From the UHGV virus genome UHGV-0231863: a stretch of 44,709 nt of DNA; one strand, 5' to 3'. A program made the position numbers and the translations under genes. The stretch comes from a virus. The notes under the pieces were generated by a model, which saw only the letters and a program-made list of their open reading frames with translations, was not told the DNA's origin and made no database searches. Shown piece after piece: positions 34,652 to 43,868 of this stretch (positions are counted from its first letter, which is position 1; every line of letters starts with the position of its first letter).

Positions 34652-35197
34652 ATGAAGCTGAAACTCAAGCAGCCATCGCCAGAGGTGGTGCAAGCTGCAC
34701 ATGAAGAAGCTGTTAGCGCAAACCGCCGACGTAAACGACCGCGTGGGAAACAGAGCCTTTATCAATCGTCCAGTAATTCCGCCACGTTGTGGGACCCGGA
34801 CTATTGCGACGCGTTAATCGAGTTCTTCGACCGTACGTCGTGGGAACTTGTGCCTACGTCCAAGGGTGACGAACGTCCGCTGATTCAGGATAAACCGCCG
34901 TCACTGGCCCGCTTCGCCTTACACATCGGCGTAACTATCCCGATTATTAAGCTGTGGCTGCGTGAGATTCCCGCATTTGCAGAAGCCTATGAAACAGCAC
35001 AGGCGCTGGAAGAGGCATATTTCACTGAGACAGGGGCCGCGGGTATCTCTGCTACGTTCGCCGCAGCTAAACTGGGCCTCGGTAAAGAGAAACCAGTCGA
35101 ATCCACCGAAGAAACGGCACCGACTGAGATTATTTTTAGTGTTGCAGAGCCTGTAGGTAAAATTGTAACAACGAATATGGGTGAGGTAGAGGAATGA
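34652..35197 (+). CDS. terminase small subunit (putative)
   Basis: ATG with AAGGGG SD; basic N-terminus; immediately upstream of and overlapping the large terminase. Confidence 0.55.
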   Translation: MKLKLKQPSPEVVQAAHEEAVSANRRRKRPRGKQSLYQSSSNSATLWDPDYCDALIEFFDRTSWELVPTSKGDERPLIQDKPPSLARFALHIGVTIPIIKLWLREIPAFAEAYETAQALEEAYFTETGAAGISATFAAAKLGLGKEKPVESTEETAPTEIIFSVAEPVGKIVTTNMGEVEE

Positions 35198-36444
35198 GTA
35201 TTCAGCTATCCGCACCGCAGGCACTGTTCCTGAATTGCGATAACAAATACAAAGCCTATGTCGGCGGCTTCGGCAGCGGAAAGACATTTGTTGGCTGCCT
35301 TGACCTGCTTACGTTTATGCTCAAGCATCCAGGTACGCGCCTGGGTTACTTCGGCCCGACATACCCGGCTATCCGTGACATCTTCTACCCGACATTTGAG
35401 GAAGCCGCTAACCTGCTCGGCCTCGATGTGCTGGTTAAATCTGGCGACAAAGAAGTCGTGGTTACTCGCGGTAAGACGGTGCTCGGTACAGTTATCTGCC
35501 GTTCTATGGATAACCCAGGCTCGATAGTCGGCTTCAAAATCGCTGCTGCGGTCGTGGATGAGCTTGATGTATTGAGCCGTGAGAAAGCTGAGTTGGCGTG
35601 GAACAAAATAGTCGCCCGTATGCGTCTGGTTATCCCCGGCGTAACTAACCACATCTCTGTCACCACGACACCGGAAGGGTTCAAGTTCGTCTACGCCAAG
35701 TTCAAAGAGAACCCGACGCCGAGTTACTCGATGGTGCAGGCTTCTACACACGAGAACGCGCGATTCCTGCCGCCTGACTACATTAGCTCACTGACCGAGA
35801 CTTACCCCGCGCAACTGATTAACGCGTACCTGAACGGTGAGTTCGTTAACCTGACATCCGGCAGCGTGTATTATGCGTATGACCGTCGCAAGCACCGCAG
35901 CAAAGAGACAATTCAACCGGGCGATACACTGTACATCGGGCAGGACTTCAACGTTACGAAGAACGCCAGCGCCGTGTATGTGCAACGTAAAGACGGCTGG
36001 CACGCGGTGGCAGAACTGAAAGGTCTGTTTGATACGCCGGACACCGTGCGTGTAATTACTGAGAAGTGGAAGTCGCAGGGCCACCGCATAGTCGTTTACC
36101 CGGACGCCAGCGGCAAGAACCGCAAGACCAACTCGGCGTCCATCTCTGACATCGCCCTACTCCAGCAGGCCGGTTTCGATGTACGGGCTAAATCCGCCAA
36201 CCCACCAGTTAAAGACCGTGTTTTAGCCGTGAATACCGCGCTGGAAAAAGGTAAGCTGTGGGTTAACGACCACTTATGCCCGGAGATAGCCAAGACGCTG
36301 GAGCAACAGGCGTACGACGACAACGGAGAGCCAGCTAAAGACGGCATCATTGACCATATGGCGGATGCGCTTGGCTATCCTGTAGTTTACGAGATGCCGG
36401 TGGTTAAACCAGTAATCAACATCCCGGTGACTTTCGCACTTTAA
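35194..36444 (+). CDS. terminase large subunit
   Basis: Walker A YVGGFGSGKTFVG near N-terminus; C-terminal nuclease-type acidic residues; size 416 aa. Confidence 0.9.
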   Translation: MSIQLSAPQALFLNCDNKYKAYVGGFGSGKTFVGCLDLLTFMLKHPGTRLGYFGPTYPAIRDIFYPTFEEAANLLGLDVLVKSGDKEVVVTRGKTVLGTVICRSMDNPGSIVGFKIAAAVVDELDVLSREKAELAWNKIVARMRLVIPGVTNHISVTTTPEGFKFVYAKFKENPTPSYSMVQASTHENARFLPPDYISSLTETYPAQLINAYLNGEFVNLTSGSVYYAYDRRKHRSKETIQPGDTLYIGQDFNVTKNASAVYVQRKDGWHAVAELKGLFDTPDTVRVITEKWKSQGHRIVVYPDASGKNRKTNSASISDIALLQQAGFDVRAKSANPPVKDRVLAVNTALEKGKLWVNDHLCPEIAKTLEQQAYDDNGEPAKDGIIDHMADALGYPVVYEMPVVKPVINIPVTFAL

Positions 36445-36456
36445 GAGGATTATTCA

Positions 36457-37926
36457 ATGTTAACTATGAACGGTCAGAATCAGGGTGTTAAGACAAAACA
36501 CCGGGAATGGCTGCATCACTTCGATAAATGGCAGAAGGTGCGCCACGCACTGGAGGGTGACCTTATCCGCTATCTGCGAAACGTCGGGAAGAACGAGCCG
36601 GACCCAACTTATGCAGCCCAGCGCCAGGAAGAATACGAGAACGGCGCTATCTGCTACAATTTCACCAAGCGTACCCTGTCGGGTATGGTTGGCTCGGTAA
36701 TGCGAAAAGACCCGGAGCAGATTATTCCACGTGAACTGGAATACCTGTTACGCAATGCCGATGGCTCGGGTGTCGGCCTGTGGCAGCACGCGCAGGATAC
36801 GCTGATGGAGATTGACTCGGTGGGTCGTGGCGGTTTACTGGTGGATGCGCCGGAGACAGCGGCAGCGACGGCAGCCGAACAGAACGCCGGATTATTAAAC
36901 CCGGTCATCGCATTCTATACCGCAGAGAACATCATCAACTGGCGACTCACTCGCGTAGGCTCTGTTAACCGCGTTACGATGGTAGTGCTGCGTGAGGTAT
37001 GGGAATATTCAGAACCTCGAGCCGAGTTTGAAACCAAGTTTGGGGAACAATACCGCGTTCTCGACTTGATTGACGGGCGCTACCGTCAGCGCATATACCG
37101 ATTCGATGCGGAAGGCGGCGCGCAAGACGAAGTAATAGAAATCTTCCCGGAACTGGGCGAACAGTTGCGCGGCAAAATCCCGTTCACGTTCATCGGGGCC
37201 AGCAACAACGACGCGACGGTTGATGACGCGCCTTTGCTGCCGTTAGCTGAGCTTAATATCGGGCATTTTCGCAACAGCGCAGACAATGAGGAATCTAGCT
37301 TCGTTGTAGGCCAGCCCACTCTGTTCATCGCCCCCGGTGAGAACATGAGCATGGTACAATGGAAAGAAGCCAACCCTCGCGGAGTGCGTATGGGGTCACG
37401 TTCTGGCCATAACATCGGTTACGGCGGCAATGCGTTTCTGGTCCAGGCCGGTGAGAACAACCTAGCCAAGCAGAACATGTTGGATAAAGAGAACCAGGCC
37501 ATCCAGATTGGGGCGCAGCTTATCACCCCGACGCAGCAAATCACCGCGGAATCGGCCCGCCTGCAACGCGGAGCGGATACGTCTGTTATGGCGACAATCG
37601 CACGTAACGTAAGCATGGCGTATACCGATGCGTTGCGCTGGGTCGCGGGTATGCTTGGGATTAGCGACAGCACTGAAATTGAGTTCAAACTGAACATGGA
37701 GTTCTTCCTGCAACCGATGACAGCTCAGGACCGTTCTCAGTGGATGGCGGATATTAACGCTGGCTTGTTACCAGCTACTGCTTACTACGCCGCGCTGCGT
37801 AAGGCTGGCGTAACCGACTGGACCGATGAGGACATTCAGAACGCTATTGAGGACGCACCGCTGCCGTTGGGTGTAAATACTCAGGTAGCGGGGGATATTC
37901 CGCAGTCGGCGCAACAACAGGAGTAG
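36457..37926 (+). CDS. portal protein
   Basis: 489-aa protein directly after terminase, acidic C-terminus. Confidence 0.8.
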   Translation: MLTMNGQNQGVKTKHREWLHHFDKWQKVRHALEGDLIRYLRNVGKNEPDPTYAAQRQEEYENGAICYNFTKRTLSGMVGSVMRKDPEQIIPRELEYLLRNADGSGVGLWQHAQDTLMEIDSVGRGGLLVDAPETAAATAAEQNAGLLNPVIAFYTAENIINWRLTRVGSVNRVTMVVLREVWEYSEPRAEFETKFGEQYRVLDLIDGRYRQRIYRFDAEGGAQDEVIEIFPELGEQLRGKIPFTFIGASNNDATVDDAPLLPLAELNIGHFRNSADNEESSFVVGQPTLFIAPGENMSMVQWKEANPRGVRMGSRSGHNIGYGGNAFLVQAGENNLAKQNMLDKENQAIQIGAQLITPTQQITAESARLQRGADTSVMATIARNVSMAYTDALRWVAGMLGISDSTEIEFKLNMEFFLQPMTAQDRSQWMADINAGLLPATAYYAALRKAGVTDWTDEDIQNAIEDAPLPLGVNTQVAGDIPQSAQQQE

Positions 37927-37931
37927 ATAGA

Positions 37932-37955
37932 AAGGCCCCGCTAGGGGCCTTAGCT
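37932..37955. terminator. bidirectional terminator-like hairpin
   Basis: AAGGCCCC-gcta-GGGGCCTT between convergent portal and KilA-N genes; same stem as 4487 and 17013. Confidence 0.55.
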
Positions 37956-38609
37956 TTAACGTATATTAGCCGCACATTTACGCACAACCCGAGGTATCGC
38001 CTCTTTCAGTTCACCCCATGTATTAACGGCCTCCATGTCAAGAAGTGTCACCAGAGCTTTCTGGATGTCACTTCGCAACTGATTGGTCTTCGCATCCTGA
38101 GAGTCCCATGTATCGAAACCCGTTACGTCGCGGATATCTACGGATTCCTTTACCGCTTTAGCCACCTGTATGAAGTGTCCACTGTGGCCAATTCTTCCCT
38201 CCGTGCGCTCAATCATTCGACTAACGGCAGCGTTAAGCTCGACAAAGCTCACCGCGCCAATGTTTCGTAGTTCTACCTGCCGTTGTGTGATAAAGCGGTC
38301 GATAACGAGGAAATGGAAATAGGCGCTGTATTGCTCAGCAATATATACTGCCAGATGGAGACATGCAAAGGTGCGACCGTTTCGGCCTTTCGTCGCCCTT
38401 ATGGCATTCTCGATTCCGAGTTGTTTTTCGCATTCCTCCTTGAAAATCTTGAAGCCATCCGTTGACATGACCTGGCGAAGCTCTCTTGTCCCCATGCCGT
38501 TGTCTAAACGCCAACGGTTCATCTGGTCAACCAGCTCGTTTACGTTAATAAAGTTTTCACGGTCAAAAGTGATTTCTCCATAAGGGAACTCTAATGTTTG
38601 CAGTTTCAT
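37956..38609 (-). CDS. KilA-N domain protein (antirepressor-like regulator)
   Basis: GRNGRTFACLHLAVYIAEQYSAYFHFLV resembles the KilA-N/APSES core; lone minus-strand gene inside the head module with own promoter and AGGAG SD. Confidence 0.5.
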   Translation of the reverse strand: MKLQTLEFPYGEITFDRENFINVNELVDQMNRWRLDNGMGTRELRQVMSTDGFKIFKEECEKQLGIENAIRATKGRNGRTFACLHLAVYIAEQYSAYFHFLVIDRFITQRQVELRNIGAVSFVELNAAVSRMIERTEGRIGHSGHFIQVAKAVKESVDIRDVTGFDTWDSQDAKTNQLRSDIQKALVTLLDMEAVNTWGELKEAIPRVVRKCAANIR

Positions 38610-38637
38610 GCGTATTTCTCCTGTTTAAGTGTACGTT

Positions 38638-38665
38638 TAAATTCTACATTTGAATGTAGAATTTA
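38638..38665. promoter_or_regulatory. 28-bp palindrome (13-bp perfect arms)
   Basis: TAAATTCTACATT tg AATGTAGAATTTA in the divergent region between KilA-N and head morphogenesis genes. Confidence 0.6.
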
Positions 38666-38670
38666 ATCAA
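38641..38670 (-). promoter_or_regulatory. promoter TTGATT-18-TAGAAT for KilA-N gene, overlapped by 28-bp palindrome
   Basis: Minus strand; palindrome TAAATTCTACATT-tg-AATGTAGAATTTA at 38638-38665. Confidence 0.45.
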
Positions 38671-38751
38671 GCTCTTTTTAACCTTAAATGCGTATGATTA
38701 TGCCAATACGTTACCGACTGATATGATTGTCATATCGAAACAGGAGGGTAT

Positions 38752-40689
38752 ATGAGCTTACTGACATCTCTAATCAGCCACCAGATTTGGCTGCAACGCG
38801 CCGCATCCGGTGAAGTAAAAGACCTCGCACCATTCATTCAGGAAATGCGGGACGAAATCAAACGGCAGGTGCTGCTATTCGGCGACGACGGCCGCAGCAC
38901 CGCACGGCTGAATAAACTGTTACGTGACCTTGAAGAAGCTCTGACGGGGCTCACAGGTGACTGGCAAACAAAGCTGACAGAAGACCTTAAGGAACTGGCG
39001 GCGTATGAGGCTGAGTGGAACGTAAAGACACTGGCCACCAACGTTAACGCGGAATTTGTTACGCCTACCGCCGAGCAAGTGTGGGCCGCTGCCGAGTTTC
39101 AGCCGCTATCGTTAAGTGACAAGCCTGTTGATTTCACTAAGCTAATGTCAGGCTGGGGTGAAACCGAAGTCGCGCGCCTTGTGACCGGCGTTAAGATGGG
39201 CTTTGTACAAGGCCAGACAACACGGCAGATTGTTAAGAATGTCGTAGGCGCTGGTGGGCTGGCGGACATCTCTGAGCGTAACGCAGCTACGGTAATACGC
39301 ACCGCGCTGTCTCATGTATCCAACGAAGCCCGTAACGAGACGTACCGCCAGAACGATGACATCATCGAGAAATACGAGTGGGTGTCGACGCTGGACAGCC
39401 GTACCAGTACAACGTGTTTCACGGCTGAAACAGAATTAGCGCCCATCGCGGGGATGGACGCGGTAATGCGCGGACTCTATTCAGGAAAAATCCTTACCAT
39501 CGAACTTTCCAACGGCGAGAAGTTCAGTGGCACCCCGAAACACCCTGTACTCACGCAATACGGATGGACTCCGCTTGATGAACTCGACCCAACTAAGCAT
39601 GTCTTGTATACCACTGTTGACAAAGTGACTGTGCTCGAAACAGTGAAGAACATAAACATGCCAGCCAGAGCGGATTATATTTTTAATACGCTCGCTGATT
39701 TCCCCATCAGGAAAATGGTAAGCACGAGTCCCGCGGCAACAGATTTCTATGGCGATGGAGTGGGACTCAATGGCAAAATCGACATTGTACGGGCCGATTG
39801 CAAACTGCGGAACTACGTCCATGCCAGCGGAATTAAACAATTCAAAAGCGAGGGTTTCAGTCTTATTCATAGCGCCGCTTTGCTGTCGGACGATAGCTCT
39901 GGCGATTTTCTCCTCCGGGGTGAATGTCCTGTGAGTGTGCCCGCGCTTAGCGAGGCCAAGTGTTTTGACCATAGAATAGAAAACTGTTTTGCTTACTTGG
40001 GTCCTTCTTATGCACTCAATAGGCGGGACGCCGGACTCGAACAATTCTATAGCCCTTTTTTGATTCAAAATGGTGTCGTTAGAAACCCAACCACGGGGTC
40101 GATCATGCATGAGTCCGAGCTTCTTGAGAAATGTTGTTACCGTGGTGGTAGTGACGCCGTAATTCTTGGCTATGATGCTGGCGGGAGTGCCATCTCGGTA
40201 CAAAGAACAAATATCATCCGCATAAGCGTCGAGTTTAGAACGTGCCATGTTTATACCCTCTCTAGTAGTCAAGGATATTATACAGCAGGTAGTGCGATAG
40301 TCAAGAATTGCAGGGCCAGAGACGGGATGACGTGGGAAATCGGTAAAGGGCCGATGCCTCCGGCCCATTTTGGGTGCAGAAGCACCACTGCGCCTGTAAT
40401 CAGTTCGGAGTTCGACTTCCTCGATAAAGGCGCAAAACGCGCGGCTAAGGGTGCGGACGGCGGTATGCAGGTAAGTGCGGACACCACCTATTACGAGTTC
40501 CTGAAACAACAACCGGCATGGTTTCAGGACCAGGCGCTTGGTCCTGTTCGCGGTAAGATTTTCCGCAACAGCGGTATATCACCAGAGGAGTTTCGCGTAA
40601 TATCTGTAGATGGTTTCGGGAATCCGCTCACGCTTAAGCAGATGGCGGAACTCGATAAACGTGTTGCTGATTATCTGAAAGGGGAATAA
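38752..40689 (+). CDS. head morphogenesis protein (Mu F / SPP1 gp7-like) interrupted by an intein
   Basis: Extein junction reconstitutes DSRTSTT|CRARDGMTW...PPAHFGCRSTT, matching the D-x-R-x-R...H...G...CRC-type Mu F motif; 298 in-frame codons are inserted. Confidence 0.8.
   Translation: MSLLTSLISHQIWLQRAASGEVKDLAPFIQEMRDEIKRQVLLFGDDGRSTARLNKLLRDLEEALTGLTGDWQTKLTEDLKELAAYEAEWNVKTLATNVNAEFVTPTAEQVWAAAEFQPLSLSDKPVDFTKLMSGWGETEVARLVTGVKMGFVQGQTTRQIVKNVVGAGGLADISERNAATVIRTALSHVSNEARNETYRQNDDIIEKYEWVSTLDSRTSTTCFTAETELAPIAGMDAVMRGLYSGKILTIELSNGEKFSGTPKHPVLTQYGWTPLDELDPTKHVLYTTVDKVTVLETVKNINMPARADYIFNTLADFPIRKMVSTSPAATDFYGDGVGLNGKIDIVRADCKLRNYVHASGIKQFKSEGFSLIHSAALLSDDSSGDFLLRGECPVSVPALSEAKCFDHRIENCFAYLGPSYALNRRDAGLEQFYSPFLIQNGVVRNPTTGSIMHESELLEKCCYRGGSDAVILGYDAGGSAISVQRTNIIRISVEFRTCHVYTLSSSQGYYTAGSAIVKNCRARDGMTWEIGKGPMPPAHFGCRSTTAPVISSEFDFLDKGAKRAAKGADGGMQVSADTTYYEFLKQQPAWFQDQALGPVRGKIFRNSGISPEEFRVISVDGFGNPLTLKQMAELDKRVADYLKGE
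39481..40248 (-). CDS. antisense-nested gene: tandem HTH + DUF559/Vsr-like endonuclease-fold protein
   Basis: Minus-strand ORF from ATG 40248 (antisense to His499 codon) with GAGGG SD and TTGACT-16-TATAAT promoter; IIAKNYGVTTTTVTTFLKKLGL and IECIRRTQVSKTVFYSMVKTLGL HTH-like; QFAIGPYNVDFAIESHSIAIEI...GWHVYVL matches DUF559 pattern. Confidence 0.55.
   Translation of the reverse strand: MARSKLDAYADDICSLYRDGTPASIIAKNYGVTTTTVTTFLKKLGLMHDRPRGWVSNDTILNQKRAIELFESGVPPIECIRRTQVSKTVFYSMVKTLGLAKRGHTHRTFTPEEKIARAIVRQQSGAMNKTETLAFELFNSAGMDVVPQFAIGPYNVDFAIESHSIAIEICCRGTRAYHFPDGEISERIKNIIRSGWHVYVLHCFEHSHFVNSGIQDMLSWVEFIKRSPSVLREYRVFRGATELLAVGKFDGKDFS
40277..40304 (-). promoter_or_regulatory. sigma70-type promoter TTGACT-16-TATAAT for the antisense intein-nested gene
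   Basis: Minus strand reads TTGACTatcgcactacctgctgTATAAT, then GAGGG SD and ATG; lies within the intein C-terminal coding region. Confidence 0.55.
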
Positions 40690-42071: not shown

Positions 42072-42773
42072 ATGAATCGTTTTTTACGTTATCCGTTCCA
42101 GGAAGAAGCTGGAGCAGAAGATAAATCAGGCGGCGGTGACGCACCTAAAATGTACACAGCCGAAGAAGTGCAGGCGCTGATTGAGAAAGAAGTCGCCGGG
42201 CTTAAGGCTAACCAGGAAGCATTGCTGAACGAGAAGAAAGAAGCCGCTCGTAAAGCAAAAGAGGCCGAAGAAGAGCGGCAGCGTGCACACCAGGAGGCCC
42301 TGAAAGCCGCCGGTAAGATGGACGAGTTCGAAAAGACGATTCGTAGCCAGTATGACCCGGTGTTAGCCGAGAAAGATGGTCGCATCTCCAGAATGGCAGA
42401 GCGCATCCTCGGCAGCGAACGCAAAGCGGTGTTAGGTTCTTTCGCGGGTGACTTCATTACCCCGGAAGCAGTAGACATTCTCGCGCCGTTCGTTAAGACT
42501 GAGTTTGAAGGTGATGATGTGGTTACTAAGTTTGTCGGCGCGGATGGCAACGTAGTCACAACTGACCCGGAACAGTTCCGCAAATACCTGCGCGAACATA
42601 AAGCGTTTTCGCATTTGATTAAAGCAAATGCAGCTTCCGGCGGCGGGGCTTCCGGTAGCAAAGGCGGCGGGGCCGCACCAGCGTTTAAAGACATGAGTGA
42701 AGCAGAGCGTTTAGCCCTGTATAAATCGAACCCTGCCGAATTTGAACGGCAACTTAAAGCCCTGAGGAAATAA
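42072..42773 (+). CDS. scaffolding protein (putative)
   Basis: Internal ATG of track ORF; highly charged Ala/Glu/Lys coiled-coil protein immediately upstream of capsid gene. Confidence 0.6.
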   Translation: MNRFLRYPFQEEAGAEDKSGGGDAPKMYTAEEVQALIEKEVAGLKANQEALLNEKKEAARKAKEAEEERQRAHQEALKAAGKMDEFEKTIRSQYDPVLAEKDGRISRMAERILGSERKAVLGSFAGDFITPEAVDILAPFVKTEFEGDDVVTKFVGADGNVVTTDPEQFRKYLREHKAFSHLIKANAASGGGASGSKGGGAAPAFKDMSEAERLALYKSNPAEFERQLKALRK

Positions 42774-42775
42774 TA

Positions 42776-43825
42776 ATGGCAATTACCACTATCGGCGATA
42801 TCGTAACTGGCAACATCCCGGTCCTGGCGTCTTATATGACCGAGGACCCGGTAGAAAAAACCGCGTTCTTCCAGTCTGGTATTCTGACCCCGACTCCGTA
42901 CGCTGCCGAGATTGCTCGCGGTCCGTCCAACGTCGCCAACATTCCTTTCTGGAAAGCGATTGATACTTCTATCGAGCCTAACTACTCGAACGATGTTTAT
43001 CAGGACATCGCTACCCCGCGTAATGTGCAAACCGGTGAGATGATGGCCCGCGTTGCGTACCTGAACGAAGGTTTCGGTCAGGCGGACCTGACTGTCGAAC
43101 TGACCAGCCAGAACCCTCTGCAATCCGTAGCGTCCCGTCTGGATAACTTCTGGCAGCGTCAGGCACAACGCCGTCTGATTGCTACCGCGCTCGGTCTGTA
43201 CAACGACAACGTAGCTGCTACCGATGCTTACCATACGCAGAACGATATGGTTATCGACGTGTCCGCTACTCTGGGCTTCGACGCAGGTGCGTTCATCGAC
43301 GCCACTCAGACTATGGGCGATGCTCTGATGGGTAACGGTGGTGAGGTGCTGGGCGCTATCGCGATGCACAGTTTCGTTTATGCACAGGCGCGTAAGCAGC
43401 AGCTTATCGACTTCATTCGCGACGCTGACAACAACACCATGTTTGCTAGCTACCAGGGCTACCGTGTGATTGTTGACGACAGCATGACTGTAGTTGGTAC
43501 TGGTCCAAGCCGTAAGTTCATCTCCATCATCTTTGGCAACGGTGCCATCGGTTATGGTGAAGGCAACCCGTCCAACCCGCTGGAATACGAACGTGAAGCG
43601 TCCCGCGGCAATGGTGGCGGCGTTGAAACCCTGTGGACCCGTAAGACCTGGTTGCTGCACCCACTGGGCTACAGCTTCACCAGCGCGGTAATCACCGGCA
43701 ACGGCACCGAGACTGTAGCCCGCTCCGCTTCCTGGCAGGACCTGGCGAACGCCTCCAACTGGAACCGTGTGGTTGACCGTAAGCATGTACCGATTGCCTT
43801 CCTGGTAACTGGTGTCGGGGCTTAA
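42776..43825 (+). CDS. major capsid protein
   Basis: 349 aa following scaffold, strong hairpin immediately downstream; composition typical of capsid proteins. Confidence 0.8.
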   Translation: MAITTIGDIVTGNIPVLASYMTEDPVEKTAFFQSGILTPTPYAAEIARGPSNVANIPFWKAIDTSIEPNYSNDVYQDIATPRNVQTGEMMARVAYLNEGFGQADLTVELTSQNPLQSVASRLDNFWQRQAQRRLIATALGLYNDNVAATDAYHTQNDMVIDVSATLGFDAGAFIDATQTMGDALMGNGGEVLGAIAMHSFVYAQARKQQLIDFIRDADNNTMFASYQGYRVIVDDSMTVVGTGPSRKFISIIFGNGAIGYGEGNPSNPLEYEREASRGNGGGVETLWTRKTWLLHPLGYSFTSAVITGNGTETVARSASWQDLANASNWNRVVDRKHVPIAFLVTGVGA

Positions 43826-43842
43826 GGTTAAGATATAATCGA

Positions 43843-43868
43843 GAGGGACTTCGGTCCCTCTTTTCATT
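43843..43868 (+). terminator. hairpin/terminator after major capsid gene
   Basis: GAGGGAC-ttcg-GTCCCTC + TTTTCATTT. Confidence 0.6.

What the first reader, a model, noticed from the sequence alone, without database searches (positions are those of the whole stretch)
37956..38670. Lone minus-strand KilA-N-like gene between portal and head morphogenesis genes
A single antiparallel gene with its own promoter, SD and flanking terminator interrupts the packaging-head operon. KilA-N proteins are often antirepressors or host-takeover factors, and this one sits next to the intein-bearing gene, making the 37.9-40.3 kb stretch a hot spot of accessory and mobile DNA.
Basis: inference. Interest (0 to 1): 0.4.

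Follow-up and report, generated by a model that had tools for sequence, protein, structure and literature searches.

The report
Mobile KilA-N DNA-binding gene cassette
A real but dispensable gene cassette, inserted backwards between the portal and head-assembly genes of an E. coli phage, encodes a nuclease-free DNA-binding protein that probably switches itself off by binding a palindrome in its own promoter; the database label 'amidase' is unsupported and its biological role is unknown.

Summary
A 217-aa minus-strand gene (37956-38609) lies between the portal and Mu-F head-morphogenesis genes. It has a Shine-Dalgarno site, a sigma-70-like promoter and a GC hairpin shared with the portal stop.

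It is a dispensable, mobile cassette. The nearest relative KMB36 and most Kagunaviruses lack it, while most Salmonella Jerseyviruses carry it. The same hairpin-gene-promoter unit sits between tail genes in Macdonaldcampvirus and upstream of the small terminase gene in a third phage type.

The protein models (pLDDT 92) as a KilA-N/APSES-type winged helix plus a four-helix bundle. No amidase evidence exists, so the PHROG/GenBank 'amidase' label is unsupported. No antirepressor (ANT/Bro) domain was found.

The C-terminal bundle is almost invariant despite saturated synonymous change. The predicted recognition helix and wing vary, and they co-vary, imperfectly, with a perfect palindrome over the gene's own -10/spacer. 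Those palindromes occur nowhere else in 2.9 million viral contigs. Longer relatives fuse this module to GIY-YIG nucleases.

Best reading: a nuclease-free, autoregulated, probably dimeric DNA-binding accessory gene. Its biological role is unknown. This is a new member of a known kind, of modest interest.

The parts
37932..37951 (.). GC-rich hairpin (AAGGCCCC-GCTA-GGGGCCTT) between the convergent stops of the portal gene and the KilA-N gene. Probable intrinsic terminator of the minus-strand gene, and the left end of the cassette.
   Evidence: Inverted repeat I4. Folding energy -15.9/-16.8 kcal/mol, z about -2.2. An equivalent hairpin follows the gene in every context examined, including Macdonaldcampvirus. 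Not called by the simple terminator scan.
37956..38609 (-). Coding sequence of a 217-aa protein. Residues 1-95 form a KilA-N/APSES-type winged helix preceded by a beta-hairpin. Residues 96-110 form a linker helix. Residues 111-217 form a four-helix bundle.
   Evidence: ORF. Pfam KilA-N 21.5 bits. PHROG 6095 full length. 342 phage records. 139 representative clusters. Model pLDDT 92. Fold matches. dN/dS.
38355..38498 (-). Codons 38-85, covering helices a2 and a3 and the wing of the winged helix. This is the hypervariable specificity patch.
   Evidence: Entropy 0.95-1.11 bits per column here, against 0.06-0.4 in the C-domain. Nucleotide identity 53-76% here, against 83-100% in the flanks. Aligns to the Mbp1 helix-turn-helix and wing. 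This patch type is found in only 10 phage records.
38617..38622 (-). Shine-Dalgarno site AGGAGA, 7 nt upstream of the ATG.
   Evidence: Read from the sequence. Conserved in relatives.
38637..38666 (.). Perfect palindrome TTAAATTCTACATT-TG-AATGTAGAATTTAA (14-bp arms, 2-bp centre) covering the -10 hexamer and spacer of the gene's promoter. Proposed operator.
   Evidence: Inverted repeat I1, 100% complementary. Unique in the window with 0 expected by chance. Found in IMG/VR only in contigs that carry the gene. Absent from 185,579 bacterial genomes. Arms identical between lineages whose synonymous sites are saturated.
38641..38670 (-). Sigma-70-like promoter of the minus-strand gene: TTGATT, 18 nt, TAGAAT.
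   Evidence: The same geometry with different sequence occurs in all variants: TTGACA-17-TACCAT, TTGCAT-18-TATAAT, TTGACT-18-TAGTAT.
38679..38751 (+). Right-hand intergenic segment, shared with Jerseyviruses but not with cassette-free Kagunaviruses or Macdonaldcampvirus. It holds a promoter-like site (ATGCCA-16-TATGAT at 38700-38727) and the Shine-Dalgarno site of the Mu-F gene (AGGAGGG at 38742-38748).
37920..38751 (.). Whole segment that replaces about 87 nt of portal-end and intergenic sequence in the nearest cassette-free relative, KMB36. This is the extent of the acquired DNA.
   Evidence: Comparison. KMB36 annotation shows portal followed by Mu-F with a 36-nt gap.

Best explanation
The 37.92-38.75 kb segment is a self-contained accessory transcription unit of the 'moron' type. 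It consists of a sigma-70-type promoter, a gene and a hairpin terminator, and it is inserted antiparallel into the late packaging-head operon. It has moved between phage lineages as a unit.

Its product is a nuclease-free, two-domain DNA-binding protein:
- an N-terminal KilA-N/APSES-type winged helix, which reads the DNA sequence;

The protein most likely binds as a dimer to the perfect palindrome lying over the -10 hexamer and spacer of its own promoter, and so represses its own synthesis.

The same KilA-N plus bundle module serves as the DNA-targeting part of GIY-YIG/T5orf172 endonuclease-like proteins in other phages. The gene here is the stand-alone, non-cutting form.

Status of each step:
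- Shown: gene reality, accessory and mobile status, fold class, absence of amidase, antirepressor and nuclease domains, and purifying selection.
- Inferred: dimer formation, operator binding and autorepression.
- Unknown: what the protein does for the phage beyond regulating itself.
For: **Accessory and mobile**
- KMB36 has portal and Mu-F adjacent, with no such gene.
- Only 3 Escherichia records carry the protein, against 335 Salmonella records. About 114 Escherichia/Kagunavirus records match the flanking region.
- The same unit lies between the tape-measure and minor-tail genes in Macdonaldcampvirus, again antiparallel. Homology starts at the hairpin and ends just past the palindrome.
- A third context is upstream of the small terminase gene.
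- GC is 0.41-0.50 in the cassette against 0.54-0.56 in the flanks.

**Fold**
- AlphaFold model with pLDDT 92.
- Viral KilA-N proteins match at E 2e-7 to 1e-3.
- The Mbp1 APSES domain matches at probability 0.96, TM 0.44, and Mbp1 chains are the top PDB sequence-profile hits.
- DdrC, a dimeric DNA binder made of a winged helix plus a four-helix bundle, is the top full-length PDB match (E 1e-3, probability 1.0; topology in PMC9303277).
- 48 of 62 relatives hit Pfam KilA-N.

**Selection**
- C-domain pN is 0.03-0.06 with pS up to 0.86. Codons 40-96 have pN 0.12-0.39.
- Variability is concentrated in a2, a3 and the wing.

**Operator**
- The palindrome overlaps the -10 hexamer and spacer.
- Variant-1 proteins occur with palindrome A only (7 loci, 2 lineages).
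- Variant-2 proteins always occur with palindrome B (6 loci).
- Variant-4 proteins occur with AATACTA-type repeats.
- The two variable patches are separated by about 120 nt that are 76-96% identical.
- Palindromes A and B occur in IMG/VR only next to this gene.
- Unrelated long inverted repeats sit at the same position upstream of distant family members: 7 of 16 upstream regions at P<=0.02.

**Relation to nucleases**
- P0042, P0049, P0073, P0075 and P0079 carry N-terminal GIY-YIG/MUG113/T5orf172 domains.
- The window protein aligns to P0042 over residues 55-208, 33% identity, E 2e-25.

**Precedent**
- CapR is a DNA-binding protein related to the DNA-binding domain of T5orf172-family homing endonucleases, and its authors call it a domesticated endonuclease that tunes phage gene expression (PMC8096241). 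That it specifically represses the capsid operon is from my own knowledge.
Against: - There is no experiment. DNA binding, dimerisation and repression are all inferred.
- The N-domain is not basic (pI 5.8). In DdrC the equivalent winged helix is acidic and does not bind DNA.
- The largest variant group (SE2-like, variant 3) has a strong promoter but no long palindrome.
- About 38 Jerseyvirus records carry a variant-2 protein with palindrome A next to the gene and palindrome B about 60 nt further upstream. The protein-palindrome pairing is therefore not one-to-one.
- Few independent lineages underlie the covariation, and close linkage (150-250 nt) could produce it.
- The palindrome could instead act as an RNA hairpin in late read-through transcripts (-13.1 kcal/mol, z -4.8), or bind another factor.
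- The DdrC fold match is borderline (E 1e-3, TM 0.30-0.37).
Confidence: 0.6

Rival explanations
1. Inter-phage competition module of the BstA type. The conserved C-terminal domain blocks replication or expression of co-infecting phage DNA. The variable KilA-N domain recognises the cognate palindrome on the phage's own genome as a 'self' mark that neutralises the protein. Diversified protein-palindrome pairs would then reflect conflict among related phages.
For: - BstA is a KilA-N plus C-domain protein. Its activity is suppressed by a cognate DNA element that overlaps the start of its own gene, with variant-specific pairs (PMC8585504).
- Here there is a variable N-domain, a matching palindrome next to the gene start and an invariant C-domain.
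- The palindromes are found only in this cassette.
- The cassette is dispensable and horizontally mobile.
- 23 of 62 relatives weakly match the defence candidate PDC-S22.
- Diversification of specificity is hard to explain by autoregulation alone (inference).
Against: - No similarity to BstA beyond the KilA-N domain: PADLOC gave no BstA hit, and PHROG 6287 was hit by 1 of 62 relatives.
- BstA is prophage-borne, whereas these phages are virulent.
- The palindrome position over the -10 hexamer is fully explained by simple autorepression.
- No phenotype data exist.
Confidence: 0.12
2. One reading: an antirepressor or host-takeover ('Kil') factor that binds a repressor or a host protein and is toxic when expressed.
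For: - The family name comes from P1 KilA (my own knowledge).
- The sigma-70-type promoter would allow early expression.
- The extreme conservation of the C-domain across E. coli and Salmonella phages fits contact with a conserved host protein.
Against: - No ANT/KilA-C or Bro-N domain is present.
- The phages carrying the gene belong to groups regarded as virulent (Guernseyvirinae, Macdonaldcampvirus; lifestyle from my own knowledge), so no resident repressor to antagonise is expected.
- The variable winged helix and the palindromes point to DNA recognition, not protein recognition.
- Toxicity is untested.
Confidence: 0.12
3. Regulator of the neighbouring late genes. By binding the divergent promoter region, the protein controls rightward transcription of the Mu-F/head genes. 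In Macdonaldcampvirus it would control the minor-tail genes instead.
For: - The palindrome lies in a divergent intergenic region that has a promoter-like site facing Mu-F.
- The cassette sits immediately upstream of a late gene block in all three contexts.
- CapR precedent: a protein related to homing-endonuclease DNA-binding domains that tunes phage gene expression. Repression of a capsid operon by CapR is from my own knowledge.
Against: - Close relatives express the same late genes without the cassette.
- The palindrome is centred on the minus-strand promoter, about 50 nt from the plus-strand -35.
- The segment between the palindrome and the downstream late gene is not part of the unit shared across contexts.
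Confidence: 0.1
4. Decaying relic of a free-standing GIY-YIG homing endonuclease gene that lost its nuclease domain and persists without function.
For: - Relatives carry GIY-YIG/T5orf172 domains.
- The cassette sits between conserved genes with its own promoter, as free-standing homing endonuclease genes do.
Against: - Purifying selection is very strong (omega about 0.03-0.1).
- Most family clusters are nuclease-free proteins of about 200-230 aa.
- No frameshifted copies appeared among the loci examined, except one possible case, L018.
Confidence: 0.04
5. The database label: an amidase or lysis enzyme (PHROG 6095, and many GenBank records).
For: Only the label itself.
Against: - No amidase, CHAP, NlpC or lysozyme family appears in Pfam or NCBIfam.
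- The only PDB sequence hit of that kind is a chance-level match to autolysin E (E about 1).
- There is no hydrolase fold match, and the model is a winged helix plus a helical bundle.
- UniRef names the same clusters 'KilA-N domain-containing protein'.
Confidence: 0.01

Closest known systems
KilA-N / APSES DNA-binding domain proteins (Pfam PF04383; fungal Mbp1/Swi4; poxvirus N1R/p28; phage P1 KilA)
   Same: The N-terminal beta-hairpin plus winged helix, with the G-x-G...T-[WF]-x-x-L-H-[LM]-A motif. It is matched by sequence in relatives, by profile to Mbp1 and by fold.
   Different: The window protein itself scores below the Pfam cut-off (21.5 against 23.8 bits). Its C-terminal four-helix domain has no Pfam family and is not the ANT/KilA-C domain of P1 KilA-type proteins.
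GIY-YIG/T5orf172-KilA-N fusion proteins (putative free-standing homing endonucleases) and CapR of the Vibrio satellite PLE (PMC8096241)
   Same: The KilA-N plus C-terminal bundle module is shared over about 150 residues (E 2e-25). Like CapR, this is a nuclease-free DNA binder related to the DNA-binding part of endonuclease genes. Like free-standing homing endonuclease genes, it lies between conserved phage genes with its own promoter.
   Different: There is no nuclease domain here. CapR's DNA-binding domain is a different fold family, and its target is another element's operon. Here the only identified site is the gene's own promoter.
BstA-aba abortive-infection system (PMC8585504)
   Same: [quoted passage not shown]
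   Different: No detectable similarity in the C-terminal domain. BstA is prophage-encoded and 307 aa long. The aba element has terminal direct repeats and is not a promoter palindrome. The function here is untested.
DdrC of Deinococcus radiodurans (PDB 7qvb, 7udi, 8u0g; PMC9303277)
   Same: The same order of elements over the full length: beta-hairpin, winged helix, helix, linker helix, then a four-helix bundle with a short inserted helix. It is the top PDB fold match (probability 1.0, E 1e-3). DdrC is a dimeric DNA-binding protein.
   Different: No sequence similarity: DdrC is absent from the PDB profile search at E<=10. TM is only 0.30-0.37. DdrC binds DNA without sequence specificity through grooves, not through its acidic winged helix.
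Phage 'morons' (extra genes with their own promoter and terminator between genes that are adjacent in relatives; Hendrix and colleagues, my own knowledge)
   Same: Own sigma-70-like promoter and hairpin terminator. Inserted between genes that are adjacent in close relatives. Lower GC than the flanks.
   Different: Classic morons were defined in temperate phages and are expressed from the prophage. This one is in virulent phages and carries an operator-like palindrome.
I-TevI autorepression (a homing endonuclease that represses its own promoter through an operator; my own knowledge)
   Same: A protein of the homing-endonuclease world whose DNA-binding module recognises a site overlapping its own promoter.
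   Different: I-TevI retains its nuclease and binds an asymmetric site as a monomer. Here there is no nuclease and the site is symmetric.

Membership tests
KilA-N domain (Pfam PF04383) | Score at or above the Pfam gathering cut-off (23.8 bits) | tested here: not met
   The window protein scores 21.5 bits, E 2.1e-4, over residues 13-105. However, 48 of 62 full-length homologues match at E<0.01, best 7.1e-18, so membership follows by transitive homology.
KilA-N domain (Pfam PF04383) | APSES-like fold: beta-hairpin plus winged helix-turn-helix | tested here: met
   Model pLDDT 92. Mbp1 1bm8 matches at probability 0.96 and TM(target) 0.44. Viral KilA-N proteins match at E 2e-7 to 1e-3. Mbp1 chains are the top three PDB profile hits, and the alignment covers the GTW...A motif.
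Peptidoglycan amidase / lysis protein (label of PHROG 6095) | A catalytic amidase or other cell-wall hydrolase domain | tested here: not met
   No such family in Pfam or NCBIfam. PDB sequence search gives only a chance-level hit, E about 1. No hydrolase fold match.
P1 KilA / Ant-type antirepressors | C-terminal ANT (KilA-C, PF03374) or N-terminal Bro-N/AntA domain | tested here: not met
   No hit at E<=0.1 for the window protein, and none among 62 relatives at E<=0.01.
P1 KilA / Ant-type antirepressors | Binds and inactivates a repressor, or is lethal to the host on expression | not testable with these tools
   Requires expression and interaction experiments.
BstA abortive-infection proteins | Homology over the BstA C-terminal domain | tested here: not met
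   PADLOC returned only a weak PDC-S22 hit over the KilA-N region and no BstA hit. PHROG 6287 (BstA) was hit by 1 of 62 relatives at 5.5e-5.
BstA abortive-infection proteins | A cognate, variant-specific DNA element at the gene start that neutralises the protein | tested here: inconclusive
   Variant-matched palindromes lie 28-57 nt upstream of the ATG. Their function is unknown, and the pairing is imperfect in the A+B clade.
GIY-YIG / T5orf172 homing endonucleases | A GIY-YIG-superfamily catalytic domain | tested here: not met
   Absent from the 217-aa protein. There is no room upstream, because the promoter lies at -30 to -60. The domain is present in the longer relatives P0042, P0049, P0073, P0075 and P0079.
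Moron (independent accessory transcription unit) | Own promoter and terminator, inserted between genes that are adjacent in relatives | tested here: met
   Promoter-like site and hairpin. Portal and Mu-F are adjacent in KMB36 and most Kagunaviruses. Promoter and terminator activity themselves are predicted, not measured.
Virion structural / morphogenesis gene | Conserved at this position in all relatives | tested here: not met
   Absent from about 110 of 114 Escherichia/Kagunavirus records and from some Jerseyviruses. Located in tail or pre-terminase contexts elsewhere.
DdrC family | Sequence homology to Deinococcus DdrC | tested here: not met
   There is only a fold-level resemblance. DdrC does not appear in PDB profile searches at E<=10.

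The most novel reading that the evidence does not exclude
The cassette is a weapon-plus-badge system carried by virulent phages. The invariant C-terminal bundle is an effector that shuts down DNA replication or expression of co-infecting phages. The variable KilA-N domain recognises the cognate palindrome on the carrier genome, which exempts it. This would be a lytic-phage counterpart of the prophage BstA-aba system. Protein-palindrome specificity classes (A, B, AATACTA-type) would have evolved through conflict among Jersey-, Kaguna- and Macdonaldcamp-like phages that share hosts.
Probability: 0.12. Interest if true: 0.75.

Novelty: new member of a known kind. Interest (0 to 1): 0.33.

Why it matters
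**Annotation.** More than 300 phage genomes, many of them Salmonella and E. coli therapy or biocontrol candidates, carry this gene labelled 'amidase' or 'hypothetical'. The label is unsupported and should read KilA-N-type DNA-binding protein.

**Biology.**
- The family offers a compact test case for how a DNA-binding module moves between free-standing regulators and GIY-YIG endonucleases.
- It also shows how recognition specificity and target site may change together while an effector domain stays fixed.
- If the palindrome-protein pairs prove to be self-recognition tags in phage-phage conflict, that would extend the BstA-aba principle to virulent phages.
- The full-length fold resemblance to DdrC hints that this 'Deinococcus-specific' repair protein may descend from a phage KilA-N family.

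As it stands, this is an ordinary accessory gene with an above-average amount of interpretable sequence logic.

Tried and rejected
- **Amidase or lysis role.** Rejected: no family, sequence or fold support.
- **Structural role.** Rejected on presence/absence and on the alternative genomic contexts.
- **Known RNA or tRNA in the region.** Only two chance-level Rfam hits, both far below gathering scores, and no tRNA.
- **Additional copies of the palindrome as a phage regulon.** None found in the window, even at relaxed stringency.
- **Host target sites.** No exact palindrome A in 185,579 bacterial genomes. The 18-nt core occurs only in 7 unrelated non-enterobacterial contigs.
- **The search for related loci with the 62-sequence alignment.** Failed because no conserved stretch was available.
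- **First structure model from close homologues only.** Poor (pLDDT 70), so it was replaced by the deep-alignment model.
- **Literature.** Searches on Jerseyvirus plus KilA-N or amidase found no functional study of this gene.
- **Overlapping + strand gene as the cause of C-domain conservation.** Rejected: only 50-70-aa ORFs are present, and synonymous sites are saturated.
Full report
**What the window is.**
- The 4.8 kb around the finding is 91-92% identical to Escherichia phages vB-Eco-KMB36, fEg-Eco06 and EcoPhCCP1 (Guernseyvirinae, Kagunavirus).
- It is about 81% identical to many Salmonella Jerseyviruses.
- The surrounding + strand genes are terminase large subunit (35194-36444), portal (36457-37926), a Mu-F/SPP1 gp7-type head-morphogenesis gene with an intein (38752-40689) and a Hoc-like decoration gene.

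**Checking the observation.**
- A 217-aa ORF lies on the minus strand at 37956-38609.
- Upstream are AGGAGA, 7 nt before the ATG, and a sigma-70-like TTGATT-18-TAGAAT at 38670..38641.
- Downstream, four bases past the stop, is an 8-bp GC hairpin (37932-37951) shared with the convergent portal gene. Its folding energy is -16 kcal/mol.
- The terminator scan did not call this hairpin, although the minus-strand tail is UUUCUAUCU.
- ORF length proves nothing in this window, which has antisense ORFs up to 592 aa.
- The gene is nevertheless real. 342 phage records encode it, 139 clusters at 50% identity match a profile of it, and its C-terminal half has pN 0.03-0.06 where pS is 0.4-0.86.

**What the protein is.**
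- Pfam gives only a sub-threshold KilA-N hit (21.5 bits against 23.8).
- PHROGs places the protein full-length in phrog_6095, labelled 'amidase, lysis'. That label has spread to many GenBank records.
- Nothing supports it. There is no hydrolase family in Pfam or NCBIfam, only a chance-level PDB hit, and no hydrolase fold match.
- With 62 diverse full-length homologues (alignment A2), AlphaFold gives a confident model (pLDDT 92).
- The model has a beta-hairpin, a winged helix-turn-helix (a1 23-36, a2 44-48, a3 51-64, wing 70-83), helix 84-94, a linker helix, and a four-helix bundle (111-216).
- 48 of the 62 homologues hit Pfam KilA-N, best E 7e-18.
- Viral KilA-N proteins and the Mbp1 APSES domain are the fold matches. 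Mbp1 chains are the top PDB profile hits, and the alignment covers the helix-turn-helix, the wing and the G-x-G...T-W...A motif.
- The best full-length PDB match is Deinococcus DdrC (probability 1.0, E 1e-3, TM 0.30-0.37).
- The published DdrC topology is a beta-hairpin, winged helix, helix, linker and a domain-swapped four-helix bundle in a DNA-binding dimer. It runs in the same order as this model (PMC9303277).
- The DdrC match is a fold-level resemblance only.

**An accessory cassette that moves as a unit.**
- In KMB36 the portal and Mu-F genes are 36 nt apart with no such gene.
- EcoPhCCP1 has the gene (99.5% identity) but no intein. The window has both. K1G, K1ind2/3 and most other Kagunaviruses have neither.
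- Only 3 Escherichia records encode the protein, against 335 Salmonella records.
- Other relatives carry unrelated small antiparallel ORFs at the same junction: UTEC10 (114 aa plus a DUF7170 protein), 22664BS2 (129 aa), SXAU_B4 (three ORFs) and Salmonella phage pink (61 aa).
- In Macdonaldcampvirus (SB28, CHRF_10034, KFS-SE2, Vi II-E1) the same unit lies between the tape-measure and minor-tail genes, again antiparallel.
- There, nucleotide homology to the window begins at the hairpin and ends about 12 nt past the promoter palindrome.
- In a 48-kb metagenomic phage the gene lies just upstream of the small terminase gene.
- Distant family members sit in early or replication regions of Vibrio phages, and some sit in bacterial contigs.
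- Relative to KMB36, the window has about 830 nt (37920-38751) in place of about 87 nt.
- The last portal codons and the 73 nt before the Mu-F start are Jerseyvirus-like. This suggests acquisition by recombination in the homologous flanks.
- GC drops to 0.41-0.50 in the cassette, against 0.54-0.56 in the flanks.

**The promoter palindrome and its relation to the protein.**
- A perfect 14+14 palindrome (38637-38666) covers the -10 hexamer and spacer of the minus-strand promoter. It is unique in the window.
- Across relatives the promoter geometry is kept but the embedded repeat differs, and it tracks the protein's N-domain variant:
  - Variant 1 (GMGTRE[LI]RQVM) has AAATTCTACATT-NN-AATGTAGAATTT. 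This holds in 7 loci from two lineages whose synonymous sites are saturated, yet the arms are identical.
  - Variant 2 (GMGFKHLRQLMTT) always has AAATGGTATAT-N4-ATATACCATTT (6 loci).
  - Variant 4 has AATACTA(C)-type repeats.
- Between variants 1 and 2, the promoter and codons 34-83 are each only 53-76% identical. The roughly 120 nt between them are 76-96% identical.
- The variable codons encode a2, a3 and the wing. These are the elements that align with the DNA-recognition part of Mbp1.
- In 2.9 million IMG/VR contigs both palindromes occur only in contigs that carry this gene, once each. Neither the full palindrome nor its core occurs in enterobacterial genomes.
- Distant family members often have unrelated long inverted repeats at the same upstream position: 7 of 16 regions at P<=0.02 against shuffles.
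- I read this as an operator for a dimeric autorepressor.

**Caveats to the operator model.**
- The SE2-like variant 3, the commonest, has no long repeat.
- A clade of about 38 Jerseyviruses has a variant-2 protein with palindrome A next to the gene and palindrome B 60 nt further upstream.
- The number of independent switches is small and the two patches are closely linked.
- The N-domain is not basic (pI 5.8).
- The palindrome would also form an RNA hairpin if it were transcribed.

**Relation to nucleases.**
- About 13% of family clusters are longer than 280 aa.
- Of those tested, P0042, P0049, P0073, P0075 and P0079 carry N-terminal GIY-YIG, MUG113 or T5orf172 domains ahead of the KilA-N plus bundle module.
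- The window protein aligns to P0042 from the recognition helix to the end of the bundle (33% identity, E 2e-25).
- These fused forms lie in phage-like contigs.
- The module is therefore the DNA-targeting part of homing-endonuclease-like proteins, and the window gene is the common stand-alone form without a nuclease.
- A published precedent is CapR of the Vibrio satellite PLE, a DNA-binding protein related to the DNA-binding domain of T5orf172-family homing endonucleases (PMC8096241).
- Strong purifying selection argues against a decaying relic.

**What it does for the phage.**
- This remains open. The invariant bundle (omega about 0.03-0.1) implies an important contact beyond self-regulation.
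- The combination of a fixed effector domain with diversified recognition-site pairs recalls BstA and its cognate aba DNA element (PMC8585504).
- However, there is no similarity to BstA outside the KilA-N domain, and I give that reading about 0.12.

**Verdict.**
- The 'accessory and mobile hot spot' interpretation is supported. The antirepressor interpretation is not.
- The gene is a new, so far mislabelled, member of the known class of KilA-N DNA-binding accessory genes. It has a plausible autoregulatory mechanism and an unknown biological role.

Noticed in passing
window 39481-40512 (-), inside the intein of the Mu-F gene (38752-40689 +); also L027, L062, L064: The intein carries a real gene on the antisense strand that encodes an HTH plus Vsr-like PD-(D/E)XK endonuclease.
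- It is codon-aligned with the sense frame, which is merely kept open.
- Antisense amino-acid identity exceeds sense identity in the intein centre, for example 0.53 against 0.25.
- Substitutions peak at sense codon position 1 (117/66/87 for positions 1/2/3).
- Codons that would be antisense stops are absent over 365 codons (P about 6e-4).
- A different intein at another Mu-F site (L027) has a homologous antisense ORF (E 3e-10).
- Antisense VSR-like endonucleases in minor-capsid inteins were recently described for actinobacteriophages (bioRxiv 10.1101/2025.01.02.630785). This would be an enterobacterial-phage example.
   Followed up: yes
window 38651-38652; compare L002, L003, L009-L012: The two central bases of the otherwise identical palindrome are TG in the window and in L008 but CA in all other carriers. 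That is the reverse complement, as if the centre or the whole palindrome had been flipped.
   Followed up: no
L028/L030, about 129-158 nt upstream of the gene: A degenerate copy of the type-A promoter palindrome, together with the conserved 5' leader and Shine-Dalgarno site, sits upstream of the current AATACTAC-type promoter. This looks like a scar from replacement of the cassette's 5' end. SE124_1FR-type phages similarly have a duplicated promoter module carrying both palindromes.
   Followed up: partly
PDB 7qvb/7udi/8u0g against model ma59ad5749e02: Deinococcus DdrC was described as having no structural homologues. It shares its full-length element order (beta-hairpin, winged helix, linker, four-helix bundle) with this phage KilA-N family and is the top PDB fold hit (E 1e-3). 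DdrC may therefore descend from a phage KilA-N-type protein.
   Followed up: partly
window 42089-43867 (-): A 592-aa open reading frame runs antisense to the scaffold and major capsid genes. It is probably a codon-phase artefact, but it is unusually long.
   Followed up: no
L058 2501-3151 and 4203-4856: A bacterial-looking metagenomic contig carries two paralogues of the family about 1 kb apart, next to an HNH gene and an MscS channel gene. The first paralogue has a 13-bp-arm palindrome upstream and the second has none.
   Followed up: no
L006 1456-1939, L007 1484-1873, L035 944-1716, L036 1367-1552: The portal/Mu-F junction of other Kagunaviruses and of Salmonella phage pink holds different small antiparallel ORFs. 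These include a DUF7170 protein and a 61-aa ORF shared by SXAU_B4 and pink. The junction is thus a general landing site for reverse-oriented accessory genes.
   Followed up: partly
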